Under the pieces are notes generated by a model. That model searched no databases. It was not told where the DNA came from and saw nothing but the letters and a program-made list of their open reading frames with translations. Below, piece after piece: positions 1 to 7,126 of a stretch of 7,192 nucleotides of DNA. The position numbers and the translations under genes are program-made. The stretch is taken from NCBI RefSeq assembly GCF_003334355.1, contig NZ_QOWP01000064.1, one strand, 5' to 3'. Source of the DNA: Escherichia coli. Lineage in GTDB: Bacteria; Pseudomonadota; Gammaproteobacteria; Enterobacterales; Enterobacteriaceae. The first letter of the stretch is position 1; every line of letters begins with the position of its first letter.

Positions 1-972
1 ATCTTCTGCGACGAACATGGTCGCGTGCGGGTGAAGTTCAACTGGGACCGTTATAACCCGGCAGACCAAGACAGTTCATGCTGGATCCGTGTGGCACAGG
101 CGTGGGCAGGCACCGGCTTTGGCAACCTGGCGATACCGCGAGTGGGTCAGGAGGTGATTGTGGACTTCCTCAACGGCGACCCGGACCAGCCGATTATTAT
201 GGGGCGTACCTACCACCATGAAAACCGCACACCCGGCAGCCTGCCGGGGACGAAGACGCAGATGACGATCCGCTCGAAAACCTATAAGGGCAGCGGGTTT
301 AATGAACTGAAGTTTGACGATGCGACAGGGAAAGAACAGGTCTACATCCACGCGCAGAAGAACATGAACACCGAGGTGCTGAATAACCGCACCACTGATG
401 TGATAAACAACCATGCTGAAACCATTGGCAACAATCAGATGATTGCGGTTACCAACAATCAGATACAGACGGTGGGTGTTAACCAGATAGAGACGGTGGG
501 CAGTAACCAGATAATTAAAGTGGGTTCTGTTCAGGTGGAAACGATTGGACTTGTTCGTGCGCTGACCGTGGGCGTGGCGTACCAGACGACGGTAGGTGGC
601 ATTATGAACACTTCGGTGGCTCTGATGCAGTCCTCGCAGATCGGTTTGCATAAATCGTTGAGGGTCGGGCTGGGTTATGACGTCAAAGTCGGAAATAACG
701 TTACCTTCACCGTTGGTAAAACGAAAAAGGATGATACCGGGCAGACCGCGATTTACTCCGCCGGTGAGCATCTGGAGCTCTGCTGTGGTAAGGCAAGGCT
801 GGTGCTGACGAAGGACGGACAAATTTTTCTCAACGGCACAAAAATTCATTTGCAGGGTAAGGAGCAGGTTAATGGTGACTCACTGTTGATTAACTGGAAC
901 TGTGCAGCCTCGAAATCCCCACCGAAGACCCCTGATGAAAAGCAGGATACGCCGGATATGAGAGAGTACTGA
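1..972 (+). CDS. vgrG: VgrG (T6SS spike) C-terminal portion; 5' end lies outside the window
   Basis: Frame 1 is open from nt 1 (IFCDEHGRVRVKFNWDRYNPADQDSSCWIRVAQAWAGTGFG...) to TGA at 970-972. The FCDEHGRV.KF.WDR block followed by NQIxTVGx octapeptide repeats is the VgrG gp27/gp5-like region as I recall it. The ORF track start at 25 (GTG) is internal. Confidence 0.9.
   Translation: MFCDEHGRVRVKFNWDRYNPADQDSSCWIRVAQAWAGTGFGNLAIPRVGQEVIVDFLNGDPDQPIIMGRTYHHENRTPGSLPGTKTQMTIRSKTYKGSGFNELKFDDATGKEQVYIHAQKNMNTEVLNNRTTDVINNHAETIGNNQMIAVTNNQIQTVGVNQIETVGSNQIIKVGSVQVETIGLVRALTVGVAYQTTVGGIMNTSVALMQSSQIGLHKSLRVGLGYDVKVGNNVTFTVGKTKKDDTGQTAIYSAGEHLELCCGKARLVLTKDGQIFLNGTKIHLQGKEQVNGDSLLINWNCAASKSPPKTPDEKQDTPDMREY
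433..528 (+). repeat. Four tandem 24-nt units inside vgrG encoding octapeptide beta-helix repeats (NQMIAVTN / NQIQTVGV / NQIETVGS / NQIIKVGS)
   Basis: Direct repeats visible in the sequence: aatcagatgattgcggttaccaac, aatcagatacagacggtgggtgtt, aaccagatagagacggtgggcagt, aaccagataattaaagtgggttct. All are in the vgrG frame. Confidence 0.85.
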
Positions 973-1031
973 TCCCGTACCTGTTCGGTATTCAGTAACA
1001 AACAAGCATTAAAAATAAACAGAAGAAGGAA

Positions 1032-4000
1032 TTGAATCATGAGCGGAAAACCAGCGGCGCGTCAGGGAATATGACTCAGTATGGCGGTCCCATTGTCCAG
1101 GGTTCGGCAGGTGTAAGAATTGGCGCGCCCACCGGCGTGGCGTGCTCGGTGTGTCCGGGCGGGATGACTTCGGGCAACCCGGTAAATCCGCTGCTGGGGG
1201 CGAAGGTGCTGCCCGGCGAGACGGACCTTGCGCTGCCCGGCCCGCTGCCGTTCATTCTCTCCCGCACCTACAGCAGCTACCGGACCAGGACACCCGCGCC
1301 GGTGGGAGTGTTTGGCCCCGGCTGGAAAGCGCCTTCTGATATCCGCTTACAGCTACGCGATGATGCACTGGTACTCAACGACAACGGCGGGCGGAGCATT
1401 CACTTTGAGCCGCTGCTGCCGGGGGAGGCGGTGTACAGCCGCAGCGAGTCAATGTGGCTGGTGCGCGGTGGTAAGGCAGCGCAGCCGGACGGCCACACGC
1501 TGGCGCGGCTGTGGGGGGCGCTGCCGCCGGATATCCGGTTAAGCCCGCATCTTTACCTGGCGACCAACAGCGCACAGGGGCCGTGGTGGATACTGGGGTG
1601 GTCAGAGCGGGTGCCGGGTGCTGAGGACGTACTGCCAGCGCCGCTGCCGCCGTACCGGGTGCTTACCGGGCTGGCAGACCGTTTCGGGCGGACGCTGACG
1701 TACCGGCGTGAGGCCGCAGGCGACCTGGCCGGGGAAATCACCGGCGTGACGGACGGTGCCGGGCGGGAGTTCCGTCTGGTGCTGACCACGCAGGCGCAGC
1801 GTGCGGAAGAGGCCCGCACCTCTTCGCTATCTTCTTCTGACAGTTCCCGCCCTCTCTCAGCCTCAGCGTTCCCCGACACACTGCCCGGTACCGAATACGG
1901 CCCCGACAGGGGTATCCGCCTTTCGGCGGTGTGGCTGATGCACGACCCGGCATACCCGGAGAGCCTGCCCGCTGCGCCACTGGTGCGGTACACGTATACG
2001 GAAGCCGGTGAACTGCTGGCGGTATATGACCGCAGCAATACGCAGGTGCGCGCTTTCACGTATGACGCGCAGCACCCGGGCCGGATGGTGGCGCACCGTT
2101 ACGCGGGAAAGCCGGAGATGCGCTACCGCTACGACGATACGGGGCGGGTGGTGGAGCAACTGAACCCGGCAGGGTTAAGCTACCGCTATCTTTATGAGCA
2201 GGACCGCATCACCGTCACCGACAGCCTGAACCGGCGTGAGGTGCTGCATACAGAAGGCGGGGCCGGGCTGAAACGGGTGGTGAAAAAAGAACTGGCGGAC
2301 GGCAGCGTCACGCACAGCGGGTATGACGCGGCAGGAAGGCTCACGGCGCAGACGGACGCGGCGGGACGGAGGACAGAGTACGGTCTGAATGTGGTGTCCG
2401 GCGATATCACGGACATCACCACACCGGACGGGCGGGAGACGAAATTTTACTATAACGACGGGAACCAGCTGACGGCGGTGGTGTACCCGGACGGGCTGGA
2501 GAGCCGCCGGGAATATGATGAACCGGGCAGGCTGGTATCGGAGACATCGCGCAGCGGGGAGACAGTACGCTACCGCTACGATGACGCGCACAGTGAGTTA
2601 CCGGCGACGACAACGGATGCGACGGGCAGCACCCGGCAGATGACGTGGAGCCGCTACGGGCAGTTGCTGGCGTTCACTGACTGCTCGGGCTACCAGACCC
2701 GCTATGAATACGACCGCTTCGGCCAGATGACGGCGGTTCACCGCGAGGAAGGTATCAGCCTTTACCGCCACTATGACAACCGTGGCCGGTTAACCTCGGT
2801 GAAAGACGCACAGGGCCGTGAAACGCGGTATGAATACAACGCCGCAGGCGACCTGACTGCCGTCATTACCCCGGACGGCAACCGGAGCGAGACACAGTAC
2901 GATGCGTGGGGAAAGGCGGTCAGCACCACGCAGGGCGGGCTGACGCGCAGTATGGAGTACGATGCTGCCGGACGTGTCATCAGTCTGACTAACGAGAACG
3001 GCAGCCACAGCGACTTCAGCTACGATGCGCTGGACCGGCTGGTACAGCAGGGCGGCTTTGACGGGCGGACGCAACGTTATCATTATGACCTGACCGGAAA
3101 ACTCACGCAGAGTGAAGATGAGGGGCTTATCACCCTCTGGCACTACGATGCGTCGGACCGCATCACGCACCGGACGGTGAACGGCGACCCGGCAGAGCAG
3201 TGGCAGTATGATGAGCACGGGTGGTTAACCACCCTCAGCCATACCAGTGAAGGCCACCGCGTGTCGGTCCACTACGGCTATGACGATAAAGGCCGCCTGA
3301 CCGGCGAACGCCAGACGGTGGAGAACCCGGAGACGGGGGAACTGCTGTGGCACCATGAGACCGGACATGCGTACAACGAACAGGGGCTGGCAAACCGCGT
3401 CACGCCGGACAGTCTGCCGCCGGTGGAGTGGCTGACCTACGGCAGCGGCTATCTTGCGGGCATGAAGCTGGGCGGGACGCCGCTGCTGGAGTTCACGCGC
3501 GACCGCCTGCACCGTGAGACGGTGCGCAGCTTCGGCAGCATGGCAGGCAGTAATGCCGCATATAAACTGACCAGCACATACACCCCCGCAGGCCAGTTAC
3601 AGAGCCAGCACCTGAACAGCCTGGTGTATGACCGTGACTACGGGTGGAATGACAACGGCGACCTGGTGCGCATCAGCGGCCCGCGACAGACGCGGGAATA
3701 CGGCTACAGCGCCACGGGCAGGCTGGAGAGTGTGCGCACCCTCGCACCAGACCTGGACATCCGCATCCCGTATGCCACGGACCCGGCGGGCAACCGGCTG
3801 CCGGACCCGGAGCTGCACCCGGACAGTACACTCACAGTGTGGCCGGATAACCGCATCGCGGAGGATGCGCACTATGTCTACCGCCACGATGAATACGGCA
3901 GGCTGACGGAGAAGACGGACCGCATCCCGGCGGGTGTGATACGGACGGACGACGAGCGGACCCACCACTACCACTACGACAGCCAGCACCGCCTGGTGTT

Positions 4001-5261
4001 CTACACGCGGATACAGCATGGCGAGCCACTGGTCGAGAGCCGCTACCTCTACGACCCGCTGGGACGGCGAATGGCAAAACGGGTCTGGCGGCGGGAGCGT
4101 GACCTGACGGGGTGGATGTCGCTGTCGCGTAAACCGGAGGTGACGTGGTATGGCTGGGACGGCGACCGGCTGACGACGGTGCAGACTGACACCACACGTA
4201 TCCAGACGGTATACGAGCCGGGAAGCTTCACGCCGCTCATCCGGGTCGAGACAGAGAACGGCGAGCGGGAAAAAGCGCAGCGGCGCAGCCTGGCAGAGAC
4301 GCTCCAGCAGGAAGGGAGTGAGAACGGCCACGGCGTGGTGTTCCCGGCTGAACTGGTGCGGCTGCTGGACAGGCTGGAGGAAGAAATCCGGGCAGACCGC
4401 GTGAGCAGTGAAAGCCGGGCGTGGCTTGCGCAGTGCGGGCTGACGGTGGAGCAACTGGCCAGACAGGTGGAGCCGGAATACACACCGGCGCGAAAAGTTC
4501 ATTTTTACCACTGCGACCACCGGGGCCTGCCGCTGGCGCTCATCAGCGAAGACGGCAATACGGCGTGGCGCGGGGAGTATGATGAATGGGGCAACCAGCT
4601 TAATGAGGAGAACCCGCATCACCTGCACCAGCCGTACCGTCTGCCAGGGCAGCAGCATGATGAGGAGTCGGGGCTGTACTATAACCGTCACCGGCACTAC
4701 GATCCGTTGCAGGGGCGGTATATCACCCCGGACCCGATTGGGTTGAGAGGTGGATGGAATATGTATCAGTATCCGTTGAATCCCATACAAGTGATAGACC
4801 CAATGGGGTTAGATGCGATTGAGAATATGACATCAGGTGGACTAATTTATGCCGTATCTGGTGTACCTGGATTGATTGCTGCAAACAGCATTACTAACAG
4901 TGCTTACCAGTTCGGTTATGATATGGATGCTATTGTTGGCGGAGCTCATAATGGGGCCGCCGATGCAATGAGACATTGTTACTTGATGTGTCGAATGACT
5001 AAGACATTTGGATCAACAATAGCTGACGTGATAGGTAAAAATCATGAGGCGGCAGGGGATAGACAAGGTCAGCCAGCTAAAGAAAGAATCATGGATCTTA
5101 AAAATAACACTGTCGGTATTGCTTGTGGCGATTTTTCTGCCAAATGTAGCGATGCATGTATTGAAAAATATAACACTGGGCAACTCTTCGGGTTAGATGG
5201 TATAAAAGCAGATAATCCAATAAAAGCAAAGCAAGGGAGTTCAGATGCTTCAAATTATTAG
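1032..5261 (+). CDS. Rhs-family polymorphic toxin: PAAR-like N-terminal domain, YD-repeat shell, RHS core ending in DPxGL, variable C-terminal toxin
   Basis: 1409-codon ORF ending at TAG 5259-5261. Many YD-type repeats ([86 protein letters not shown]). Core terminus is [32 protein letters not shown]. The start is ambiguous: in-frame candidates are TTG 1032 and ATG 1071, while the ATG with the best Shine-Dalgarno (1039) is in another frame. Confidence 0.9.
1039..1074 (+). other. Short [14 protein letters not shown]-stop carrying the PAAR motif, out of frame with the rhs body
   Basis: ATG 1039 preceded by GAAGGA (1025-1030) with an 8-nt spacer. It translates atg agc gga aaa cca gcg gcg cgt cag gga ata tga. 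Confidence 0.6.
4731..4811 (+). other. RHS core C-terminal boundary with two DPxGL motifs (DPIGL 4731-4745, DPMGL 4797-4811)
   Basis: Both motifs read directly in the rhs frame. The sequence turns from GC-rich to AT-rich across this segment. Confidence 0.8.
4812..5258 (+). other. Rhs variable C-terminal toxin domain, about 149 aa, family not recognised
   Basis: Sequence downstream of DPMGL: [151 protein letters not shown]-rich, with five Cys and several His. Confidence 0.7.
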
Positions 5262-5727
5262 AGGCAAACTTGTCATTTTTTTAATTACCCTTTGTTTATT
5301 TGTTGTTTACCTTGGGTTTGATAACAATTCAAATTCTGACATCGTATTTTATGGACATAAAACACCAAAGAGCGTTGAGATATATCTTTCTGAAAAAAAT
5401 ATTATTTATAAAATAATTAATGACCAAAAAATTAGTAGAGGGAATGGTCATTTTATAAGTGTAATGGTTAATAATTACAGGACGCACTGTGGAGTGGTTG
5501 ATATAAATCTTAATTTTTTCAATGATATTCTTTATAGCGTGCGATTAAAAAACATTAGTAAACTGGAGAATATGGAGTTCTGCGCTACAAAACAACGGGT
5601 GTATTTTAGTGATAAAAACAAGAAGGCTAGTTATAAAATAATTAATTATGGAGACTATTATGATGTTGATTATTATGATAACAATTTGAAAAATGAAGTT
5701 TTTGACTGGATTGGTAAATGGTCATAA
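5245..5727 (+). CDS. Putative cognate Rhs immunity protein (160 aa) with N-terminal hydrophobic signal/anchor segment
   Basis: ATG 5245 preceded by AGGGAG (5234-5239) with a 5-nt spacer. It overlaps the rhs stop by 17 nt and ends at TAA 5725-5727. Positively charged start (RGK) then hydrophobic [17 protein letters not shown]. Same AT-rich composition as the toxin domain and the usual position for an Rhs immunity gene. Confidence 0.7.
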
Positions 5728-5804
5728 TGAACAACACCAGAAAGAGAAAAATATAAAATACATACAGAAAGACATGAGAGCAAGGGACGGGGCAGGGCAA
5801 GATC

Positions 5805-5836
5805 ATGAAAATTGTGATGTAAATCACGATTTTCAT
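5805..5836. repeat. Imperfect inverted repeat: 14-nt arms (13 of 14 complementary; the odd position is a G-U wobble in RNA) around a 4-nt loop; possible weak terminator or protein-binding site
   Basis: atgaaaattgtgat-gtaa-atcacgattttcat, followed by ctttgcttt. It lies 78 nt downstream of the immunity stop. Confidence 0.5.
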
Positions 5837-5908: not shown

Positions 5909-7031
5909 GTGAGTATTCAAAGTTTGCTTGATTATATTTCAGTGACCCCTGATATACGACAACAAGGAAAGGTTAAACATAAATTATCTGCTATTTTGTT
6001 TCTCACCGTATGTGCAGTAATTGCAGGTGCCGATGAGTGGCAGGAAATTGAAGATTTTGGACATGAAAGACTTGAATGGCTAAAGAAATATGGTGATTTT
6101 GATAATGGCATTCCGGTCGATGACACCATTGCACGCGTTGTGAGTAACATTGACAGTTTGGCCTTTGAAAAGATGTTTATTGAATGGATGCAGGAGTGCC
6201 ATGAAATCACTGATGGTGAAATTATAGCAATAGATGGAAAGACCATAAGAGGCTCCTTTGATAAGGGAAAAAGAAAAGGAGCAATCCATATGGTGAGTGC
6301 ATTCTCGAACGAAAATGGTGTTGTACTGGGGCAGGTGAAAACGGAAGCCAAAAGTAATGAGATTACAGCCATTCCAGAGTTGCTTAACCTACTGTATTTA
6401 AAGAAAAATTTGATAACCATTGATGCTATGGGCTGTCAGAAAGATATCGCTTCGAAGATCAAAGATAAAAAAGCAGATTATCTTCTGGCAGTAAAAGGCA
6501 ATCAGGGGAAATTACATCATGCATTCGAGGAAAAATTTCCTGTAAATGTGTTTTCTAATTATAAAGGCGATTCGTTTAGTACGCAGGAGATAAGTCATGG
6601 AAGAAAAGAAACACGTTTGCATATTGTCAGTAACGTAACGCCTGAACTTTTGTGATTTTGAATTCGAATGGAAGGGATTAAAAAAGCTTTGTGTAGCATT
6701 GTCATTCAGGCAGAAGAAAGAAGATAAATCAGCAGAAGGTGTAAGCATCCGATATTATATTTCATCAAAGGATATGGATGCTAAAGAATTTGCACATGCT
6801 ATCAGAGCGCACTGGCTGATCGAGCACAGTCTTCATTGGGTGTTAGATGTAAAAATGAATGAAGATGCCAGCCGGATAAGAAGAGGAAACGCAGCCTAAA
6901 TAATATCTGGAATAAAGAAGATGGCACTGAATTTATTAAGAGATTGCAAAGACATTAAGGGTGAAGAGGAAAAGAAAGAAGGCTGCGTTAAACACAGGGA
7001 AAGATCATCAGAAGTTCACTTTTTGTACTAA
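5909..7031 (+). pseudogene. ISAs1-family (H-repeat associated) transposase, disrupted by a frameshift near 6650-6653 and an in-frame TAA at 6897-6899
   Basis: Segment 5909..6655 carries the family hallmarks as I recall them (EITAIPELL, DAMGCQKDIA, AVKGNQG). The protein continues in another frame from about 6654 ([18 protein letters not shown]...[29 protein letters not shown]) to TAA 6897-6899. The same frame then stays open for 43 more codons (IISGIKKMALNLL...) to TAA 7029-7031. The three segments sum to about 371 codons, close to the family length as I recall it. Confidence 0.8.
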
Positions 7032-7126
7032 ATAATTCGCATTTTATGTTTAAAAATTGAGATATTCCTCATTACCTGAAGCTGTTTTTTATTGCTTATA
7101 CATGATCAAATACTCCTTACATAATT

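What the first reader, a model, noticed from the sequence alone, without database searches (positions are those of the whole stretch)
433..528. Nucleotide-level 24-nt tandem repeats encoding the VgrG beta-helix
Four consecutive 24-nt units are similar enough at DNA level to allow slipped-strand or recombinational expansion and contraction of the spike, which could alter spike length between strains.
Basis: partly seen in the sequence, partly recalled or inferred. Interest (0 to 1): 0.2.

Follow-up and report, generated by a model that had tools for sequence, protein, structure and literature searches.

The report
VgrG spike octad repeats, rarely slipping
The 24-base periodicity is the DNA image of the well-known eight-residue repeat that builds the needle of the E. 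coli VgrG (VgrE) secretion spike, and a few natural strains have gained or lost exactly one repeat by slippage at short matching sequences, so the finding is real but ordinary.

Summary
The window is the E. coli yncH-vgrE-rhsE-ydcD orphan type VI secretion locus. Bases 1-972 encode the C-terminal part of VgrG.

**Observation.** Positions 433-528 are four in-frame octads (NQMIAVTN, NQIQTVGV, NQIETVGS, NQIIKVGS) in the gp5-like beta-helix. The 24-nt periodicity is real: 47/72 matches at offset 24, reached by 0 of 5000 codon shuffles. Only units 2-4 are alike (16-19/24); unit 1 matches the others at 12-13/24. Given the protein sequence, the DNA similarity is barely above expectation (P about 0.06).

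**Interpretation.** It holds up.
- The helix region has only four exact in-register direct repeats of 8 nt or more, and each matches a natural indel allele.
- These alleles are a 24-nt deletion (four genomes, one event), two independent 24-nt duplications (one genome each), and a 240-nt deletion (draft contigs).
- A second common allele type carries one extra octad, and Enterobacteriaceae relatives show two helix lengths differing by 8 residues.

**Limits.** Variation is rare: 6 of about 2750 complete genomes. It is always in frame, so this is occasional microhomology slippage and not a contingency locus. Any functional effect of about 0.5 nm per octad is untested.

The parts
1..972 (+). 3' part of vgrG (vgrE), encoding the C-terminal 323 residues of a 702-aa spike protein; stop codon at 970-972
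   Evidence: Translation. 99.9-100% identity to RefSeq genes annotated VgrG at the yncH-vgrG-rhs locus. TIGR03361 at 246.8 bits.
13..213 (+). gp5-like OB-fold domain (residues 5-71)
   Evidence: Pfam Phage_base_V, E 2.1e-15. Aligns to residues of about 380-470 in solved VgrG1.
262..591 (+). Gp5_trimer_C match (residues 88-197), the start of the needle
   Evidence: Pfam PF22178, E 1.1e-26.
361..720 (+). Array of 15 consecutive octads, from NMNTEVLN to NVTFTVGK, mostly with V/I-G at positions 6-7; the protein-level repeat
   Evidence: Listing in 24-nt register. Same array in relatives. Octapeptide VXGXXXXX repeats of gp5 and VgrG are described in PMC3004832 and PMC3069435.
433..528 (+). The four 'NQ' octads of the finding; units 2-4 (457-528) are the DNA-similar core
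429..464 (+). 12-nt exact direct repeat CAACAATCAGAT (429-440 and 453-464); junction of the natural 24-nt deletion that removes unit 1
   Evidence: Deletion allele in SC516, M159-1, M171-1 and PEC148.
467..500 (+). 10-nt direct repeat AGACGGTGGG (467-476 and 491-500; 11 nt in the O111-type allele); junction of the 24-nt duplication in O111:H8 strain 8E
480..513 (+). 10-nt direct repeat TAACCAGATA (480-489 and 504-513; 9 nt in the O111-type allele); junction of the 24-nt duplication in isolate SC422
364..611 (+). 8-nt direct repeat ATGAACAC (364-371 and 604-611, 240 nt apart); junction of a 240-nt (10-octad) deletion allele seen in draft assemblies
1039..5261 (+). Downstream RHS element core gene, the PAAR-type cargo of this spike; in this window it carries a 1-nt deletion near its start

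Best explanation
The 24-nt periodicity is the nucleotide image of the eight-residue repeat that forms the gp5-like triple-stranded beta-helix (the needle) of the E. coli T6SS spike protein VgrG, here the VgrE copy of the yncH-vgrE-rhsE orphan locus. Each octad supplies one beta-strand per chain.

Units 2-4 probably still carry some shared ancestry from past unit duplication. Most of their DNA similarity, however, follows from the conserved N-Q-I-x-x-V-G-x sequence.

Because the units are in register, they leave a few short exact direct repeats (8-12 nt) spaced 24 nt apart, or a multiple of 24. Rare RecA-independent replication slippage, or another microhomology-mediated misalignment, between these repeats deletes or duplicates whole octads in frame. 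This yields spikes shorter or longer by about 4.8 Angstrom per octad.

Such alleles arise sporadically and are tolerated. One ancient one-octad difference separates the two common allele types, and those types can also replace each other at a locus by ordinary recombination. It is not a programmed or fast-switching system.

Shown: the domain identity, the periodicity, the variant alleles and their junctions.
Inferred: the slippage mechanism, the length change per octad, and tolerance of the change.
For: Identity
- Pfam Gp5_trimer_C and Phage_base_V match, as do the NCBIfam VgrG models.
- Solved VgrG structures match at E 1e-49 to 1e-51.
- RefSeq annotation and locus context agree, and the vgrE orphan locus is described in PMC12981562.

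Octads as helix units
- gp5 octapeptide units form the strands of a 3-start intertwined helix. The prism is 110 Angstrom long with 5+18 strands (PMC3004832).
- VgrG C termini are octapeptide repeats, with 20, 33 and 26 strands in three paralogues (PMC3069435).

Slippage signature
- In 313-745 there are only four exact direct repeats of at least 8 nt at offsets that are multiples of 24. Each is the junction of a natural indel allele:
  - del24 at 429/453;
  - dup24 at 467/491 in strain 8E and dup24 at 480/504 in SC422;
  - del240 at 364/604.
- Parental alleles identical outside the indel exist. Identity is exactly 240/264 = 90.9% and 264/288 = 91.7%.
- The two duplications sit in different backgrounds, 167 mismatches over 5.3 kb.

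Rarity
- 2743 records have the 264-nt form at 95% identity or more, against 4+1+1 variants.

Older and wider variation in steps of 8 residues
- The L002/L003-type allele has one extra in-register unit and is present at 95% or more in 2091 records.
- The distance between conserved anchors is 141 or 149 aa in Escherichia, Shigella, Salmonella, Citrobacter, Enterobacter and Buttiauxella relatives.
- The query carries exactly 72 aa (9 octads) more than P. aeruginosa VgrG1 between the two aligned stretches.
Against: - The DNA similarity is not clearly above what the protein repeat dictates (P about 0.06). Shared DNA ancestry of the units is therefore weakly supported.
- Both duplications are singletons in assemblies, and SC422's vgrG is annotated as frameshifted. 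Read-level confirmation is lacking.
- The 240-nt deletion is seen only on short draft contigs of 1.4-2.2 kb, and my search for it in complete genomes was uninformative.
- The four deletion genomes are identical over 5.2 kb, so they count as one event.
- Slippage itself is inferred from junction anatomy and was not observed.
- No structure could be modelled here (AlphaFold monomer pLDDT 38.9). The mapping of 433-528 onto the intertwined helix rests on sequence alignment to solved homologues.
- 18 records in the 80-90% band and 8 in the 90-95% band of the other allele type were not inspected individually.
Confidence: 0.85

Rival explanations
1. Contingency or tuning locus. The repeat is maintained at DNA level because frequent gain and loss of octads adaptively adjusts spike length, for example to match different Rhs/PAAR cargo or targets.
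For: - Unit number does differ between alleles, and the two common allele types differ in both octad number and C-terminal tail.
- ATA is used for Ile at the same position in three successive units.
Against: - Variants are about 0.2% of genomes and come from three events.
- Units are only 50-79% identical.
- There is no significant excess of synonymous identity, and ATA is the commonest Ile codon in this vgrG+rhs anyway, 28 of 63.
- The changes are in frame, so they do not switch expression.
- The other allele type has even shorter microhomologies, at most 9 nt at any in-register spacing and at most 8 nt between adjacent units.
Confidence: 0.04
2. Artefact. Within an allele type the repeat number is really invariant, and the +/-24 and -240 forms are assembly or sequencing errors at a repetitive site.
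For: - Each duplication is a singleton.
- SC422's gene carries a frameshift, which suggests a noisier assembly.
- The -240 form is only on short draft contigs.
- Tandem repeats are a known source of assembly error (PMC6868369, title and abstract).
Against: - The 24-nt deletion is in four complete genomes from chicken, pangolin and pig isolates from China and Korea, under several accessions.
- The -240 junction is in two separate NCBI assemblies, and its 8-nt overlap is far shorter than assembler k-mers.
- All variants are exact multiples of 24 and in frame.
- The one-unit difference between the two common allele types is present in thousands of genomes.
Confidence: 0.06
3. Pure protein constraint with no mutational consequence. 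The DNA periodicity is only a by-product of convergent octad sequence, and the allelic differences arise by exchange between paralogous vgrG copies rather than by slippage within the array.
For: - The synonymous-codon null is not rejected (P about 0.06).
- The L002-type helix and tail occur both at the yncH locus and in the main T6SS cluster, which shows inter-locus or horizontal exchange.
- Homology between vgrG paralogues breaks at 335-449.
Against: - The three +/-24 variants are identical to parental alleles outside the indel.
- The inserted units are exact hybrids or copies of neighbouring units of the same allele, not of the other allele type.
- Their junctions coincide with the longest in-register microhomologies.
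Confidence: 0.05

Closest known systems
Bacteriophage T4 gp5 C-terminal beta-helix (VXGXXXXX octapeptide repeats)
   Same: - Eight-residue period with Val-Gly.
- Pfam Gp5_trimer_C match.
- Octads form successive strands of a trimeric needle (PMC3004832).
   Different: - Here the domain is part of a bacterial T6SS VgrG with no lysozyme domain.
- The repeat consensus in the flagged part is N-Q-I-x-x-V-G-x.
- The trimeric structure was not modelled here.
T6SS spike proteins VgrG/TssI with solved structures (P. aeruginosa VgrG1 4MTK/6H3L, 7Q5P, Salmonella VgrS 9MLP, 8QJA)
   Same: - Sequence homology of the OB-fold and needle at E 1e-40 to 1e-51.
- A flat tip that binds PAAR/Rhs cargo, as described for VgrS in bioRxiv 10.1101/2024.12.20.629533.
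- An Rhs gene lies immediately downstream.
   Different: - The E. coli VgrE needle carries 72 residues (9 octads) more than VgrG1 between the aligned stretches.
- Differences in strand number between paralogues were already reported as 20, 33 and 26 strands (PMC3069435).
Deletions and duplications between short direct repeats by replication slippage in E. coli (classical lacI deletion hotspots; RecA-independent tandem-repeat rearrangements). Cited from my own knowledge, not read here.
   Same: - Indel length equals the spacing of the direct repeats.
- One repeat copy is kept at the deletion junction, and a duplication adds one more.
- The longest repeats are the ones used.
   Different: These are natural alleles inferred from genome comparison, not measured mutation events, and the dependence on RecA or replication was not tested.
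VNTR or contingency loci with in-frame coding repeats, such as bacterial surface-protein repeat arrays
   Same: In-frame gain and loss of whole coding units changes the length of a repetitive structural protein.
   Different: - Units are imperfect (50-79% identical).
- Only 3-4 units are alike.
- Polymorphism is about 0.2% of genomes rather than strain to strain.

Membership tests
VgrG/TssI T6SS spike protein | gp5-like OB-fold domain (Phage_base_V) | tested here: met
   Pfam PF04717 over residues 5-71, E 2.1e-15. TIGR03361 at 246.8 bits against a cut-off of 186.35, and TIGR01646 at 173.2 against 121.8.
VgrG/TssI T6SS spike protein | C-terminal gp5-like trimerisation beta-helix built of octapeptide Val-Gly repeats | tested here: met
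   Pfam PF22178, E 1.1e-26. 15 consecutive octads in register over 361-720. Homology to solved spikes.
VgrG/TssI T6SS spike protein | N-terminal gp27-like (Phage_GPD) hub domain | tested here: inconclusive
   This part lies outside the window. The 100% identical gene in strain 510016 is 702 aa, and longer homologues carry a precomputed PF05954 hit. I did not scan the full-length protein myself.
VgrG/TssI T6SS spike protein | Genomic association with T6SS cargo (PAAR/Rhs effector plus immunity gene) | tested here: met
   An RHS core gene starts 67 nt downstream and is followed by ydcD. The locus is described as the vgrE orphan locus in PMC12981562.
VgrG/TssI T6SS spike protein | Forms a trimeric needle in which residues 145-176 are beta-helix strands | not testable with these tools
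   The AlphaFold2 monomer model was unusable (mean pLDDT 38.9), and no trimer modelling is available.
Contingency locus / hypervariable VNTR | Near-perfect tandem units | tested here: not met
   Pairwise unit identity is 12-19 of 24. TRF finds only 2.2 copies at 86% matches.
Contingency locus / hypervariable VNTR | Copy number differs frequently among closely related strains | tested here: not met
   2743 records keep the 264-nt form at 95% identity or more. Six complete genomes, from three events, differ by one unit.
Contingency locus / hypervariable VNTR | Copy-number change switches expression or reading frame | tested here: not met
   All variants are multiples of 24 nt and stay in frame.
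Microhomology-mediated (slippage) indels | Indel length equals the repeat spacing, and the junction lies inside the direct repeat | tested here: met
   del24 at CAACAATCAGAT, dup24 at AGACGGTGGGC, dup24 at TAACCAGAT and del240 at ATGAACAC.
Microhomology-mediated (slippage) indels | Variant is otherwise identical to an existing parental allele | tested here: met
   Many records give exactly 240/264 and 264/288 identity to the variant queries.
Microhomology-mediated (slippage) indels | Arises during replication independently of RecA | not testable with these tools
   Needs mutation-rate experiments.

The most novel reading that the evidence does not exclude
Octad number is under selection. The one-octad difference between the two common E. 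coli allele types, which also differ in their C-terminal tails, may set the register or length of the needle tip to fit particular Rhs/PAAR cargo. The sporadic +/-1 octad alleles would then be raw material for re-matching spike and effector after cargo exchange.
Probability: 0.05. Interest if true: 0.4.

Novelty: already known. Interest (0 to 1): 0.2.

Why it matters
It matters little beyond tidy bookkeeping. The valine-glycine octad repeat is the feature that gave Vgr proteins their name, and differences in needle length between VgrG paralogues are already in the literature.

The small addition here is population evidence. In E. coli vgrE, whole octads are occasionally gained or lost in frame at the few in-register microhomologies, and a spike one octad shorter or longer persists in isolates. 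The four-genome deletion allele comes from chickens, pangolins and pigs. If the variants are confirmed, the needle tolerates length changes of about 0.5 nm, and possibly about 5 nm for the 10-octad deletion.

This is useful for engineering VgrG carriers. It is also a caution that 8-residue length differences among VgrG annotations can be real alleles rather than errors.

Tried and rejected
- **Structure prediction.** AlphaFold2 on the 323-residue fragment with a 19-sequence alignment gave mean pLDDT 38.9 and pTM 0.19. This is unusable, as expected for an obligate intertwined trimer, so I ran no fold search.
- **Search for the 240-nt deletion in complete genomes.** A synthetic junction query was uninformative. 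Normal alleles match in two pieces at 100% and tie with any true deletion allele.
- **Unresolved records.** I could not list the 18 records in the 80-90% band (two of them are the duplication alleles) or the 8 records in the 90-95% band of the other allele type. The tool shows at most 60 rows. From the rankings, no further 240-nt or 288-nt window-type allele exists within a few percent divergence. Changes of +/-48 nt were not tested.
- **Literature.** Searches for slippage or tandem-repeat polymorphism in vgrG found nothing relevant. That is not proof that none exists.
- **Antisense ORF.** I considered a functional antisense ORF at 76-849 and rejected it because it has no NCBIfam match.
- **Homologous recombination between units.** I rejected this as the mechanism because the longest exact match is 12 nt.

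Full report
**Where we are**

The window matches E. coli chromosomes at 99.9% identity. In strain 510016 the same stretch is annotated as follows:
- yncH;
- VgrG, 702 aa;
- an RHS element core protein;
- ydcD;
- yncO;
- ISAs1 transposase pseudogenes.

A 2026 paper calls this the vgrE orphan locus of E. coli O157:H7 (PMC12981562). Bases 1-972 encode the last 323 residues of VgrG.

**The observation**

Positions 433-528 are four codon-phased 24-nt units encoding NQMIAVTN, NQIQTVGV, NQIETVGS and NQIIKVGS.

The periodicity is genuine.
- There are 47 of 72 matches at offset 24. The best 72-nt stretch of the whole window starts at 429 with 50/72.
- None of 5000 codon shuffles came close, with a maximum of 38.

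The description 'four similar units' is generous.
- Units 2-4 share 16-19 of 24 bases, but unit 1 shares only 12-13 with the others.
- Tandem Repeats Finder sees only 460-513, as 2.2 copies.

When I kept the protein sequence and redrew synonymous codons from the usage of this vgrG+rhs, the observed DNA similarity was only marginally high, P = 0.056-0.073 for five statistics. The DNA repeat is therefore essentially the shadow of a protein repeat. That protein repeat is much longer than the flagged stretch, about 15 octads over 361-720.

**What it is**

Domain evidence:
- Pfam gives Phage_base_V over residues 5-71 and Gp5_trimer_C over residues 88-197, E 1e-26.
- The NCBIfam VgrG models pass their cut-offs.
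- Solved VgrG spikes match at E 1e-49 to 1e-51.

The octapeptide VXGXXXXX repeat is the known building block of the gp5 needle. Each octad forms one strand of a three-start intertwined beta-helix, and the prism is 110 Angstrom long for 5+18 strands (PMC3004832). VgrG C termini are described in the same way, with 20, 33 and 26 strands in three P. aeruginosa paralogues (PMC3069435).

From these numbers I infer about 4.8 Angstrom of needle per octad. My own structure prediction failed (pLDDT 38.9). Placing residues 145-176 in the helix therefore rests on sequence homology.

**Testing the interpretation with alleles**

A 264-nt query (361-624) against 5426 complete E. coli genomes found 2743 records at 95% identity or more, all samples of which had the same length. 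It also found a few records in lower identity bands.

One of these, strain M159-1, has a 240-nt version. The missing 24 nt lie exactly between the two copies of the 12-nt direct repeat CAACAATCAGAT (429-440 and 453-464), and unit 1 is lost.
- The same allele is in SC516 (chicken), M171-1 (pangolin) and PEC148 (pig).
- The three loci I compared (M159-1, SC516 and PEC148) are identical over 5.2 kb, so I count the allele as one event.

Two genomes carry 288-nt versions.
- O111:H8 strain 8E has an extra hybrid unit. It is explained by duplication between the AGACGGTGGGC copies at 467/491.
- Isolate SC422 has a perfect second copy of unit 3. It is explained by duplication between the TAACCAGAT copies at 480/504.
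- The two backgrounds differ at 167 sites in 5.3 kb, so these are independent events.

Many genomes are identical to each variant apart from the indel, at exactly 240/264 and 264/288 identity.

In the protein database I also met a window-type VgrG lacking 80 residues, which is 10 octads. Its DNA junction is the 8-nt repeat ATGAACAC at 364/604. It is known only from short draft contigs of two assemblies.

A scan of 313-745 shows that these four are the only exact direct repeats of 8 nt or more at in-register spacings. Every one of them therefore has a matching natural indel. This is the anatomy expected of slippage between short direct repeats.

**Older and wider variation**

A second common allele type carries one additional in-register unit, NQIQNIGV, in exactly this place.
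- It is about 84% identical to the window.
- It is present at 95% identity or more in 2091 records.
- It occurs in the main T6SS cluster, and in O121:H19 also at the yncH locus.

In relatives from Escherichia, Shigella, Salmonella, Citrobacter, Enterobacter and Buttiauxella, the distance between two conserved anchors is either 141 or 149 residues.

Against P. aeruginosa VgrG1 the alignment splits in two, with exactly 72 extra residues (9 octads) in the E. coli protein. Needle length thus evolves in whole octads.

**What it is not**

It is not a contingency locus.
- Variants are 6 of about 2750 genomes, from three events.
- Units are 50-79% identical.
- All changes are in frame.
- The other allele type has even shorter microhomologies, at most 9 nt.

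Homologous recombination between units is implausible with at most 12 nt of identity. Recombination matters only as replacement of one whole allele type by another.

**Weak points**

- The two duplications are singletons, and SC422's gene is annotated as frameshifted.
- The 240-nt deletion lacks support from complete genomes, and one search was uninformative.
- Small groups of records in intermediate identity bands were not inspected.
- The slippage mechanism and the neutrality of length changes are inferences.

**Verdict**

The feature itself is the well-known Val-Gly octad repeat of VgrG, so novelty and interest are low.

Noticed in passing
window 1039-1075: The rhs gene has a 1-nt deletion: a G is missing between 1068 and 1069 compared with strain 510016. 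As a result [10 protein letters not shown] runs into a stop (ATA TGA). The long ORF can only restart at ATG 1071 and loses the N-terminal PAAR-motif residues. All sampled E. coli matches are 1-2 nt longer over 1-1100. This is either a pseudogene or a sequencing error.
   Followed up: partly
window 6995-6998: There is a 4-nt insertion (CAGG) relative to strain 510016 inside the ISAs1 transposase pseudogene region. The ISAs1 remnant covers 5909-7057 and is already annotated as frameshifted in the reference.
   Followed up: no
window 1-5258: ATA, normally a rare Ile codon in E. coli, is the commonest Ile codon in this vgrG+rhs stretch (28 ATA, 18 ATC, 17 ATT). This hints at a foreign origin or unusual codon usage for the element.
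   Followed up: no
window 335-449: Megablast homology to other vgrG paralogues in E. coli starts or ends at 335, 366, 395 or 443-449. That is the beginning of the octad array, which suggests mosaic boundaries between a shared OB-fold part and exchangeable needle/tail modules.
   Followed up: no
L002:2836-3505 and L003:2501-3171: Nearly the same needle and C-terminal tail sequence sits at two different loci: the yncH orphan locus in O121:H19, and next to hcp/tssB in strain EF7-18-58. This indicates exchange of vgrG 3' modules between loci or strains. In L003 both vgrG and rhs are annotated as frameshifted, and in L002 only rhs is.
   Followed up: partly
P0001 (Shigella sonnei, 528 aa): This VgrG fragment has an internal tandem duplication of 144 residues running from the OB-fold through the third octad (NHA|PAGEEIFCDEHG...). 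It could be a real rearrangement or an assembly join.
   Followed up: no
L010:342-1941, L011:342-1422: In the 240-nt deletion allele, the part upstream of the junction is only 96.8% identical to the window, while the downstream part is 99.2-99.7% identical. That allele is therefore also a mosaic of two vgrG backgrounds.
   Followed up: no
window 5245-5261: The start of ydcD (YdcD family, 215 bits; by position the candidate immunity gene) overlaps the last 17 nt of the rhs ORF. A small gene, yncO, is annotated on the opposite strand at about 5642-5827.
   Followed up: no
window 76-849 (- strand): A 257-codon antisense ORF lies inside vgrG. It has no NCBIfam match and is most likely spurious.
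   Followed up: partly
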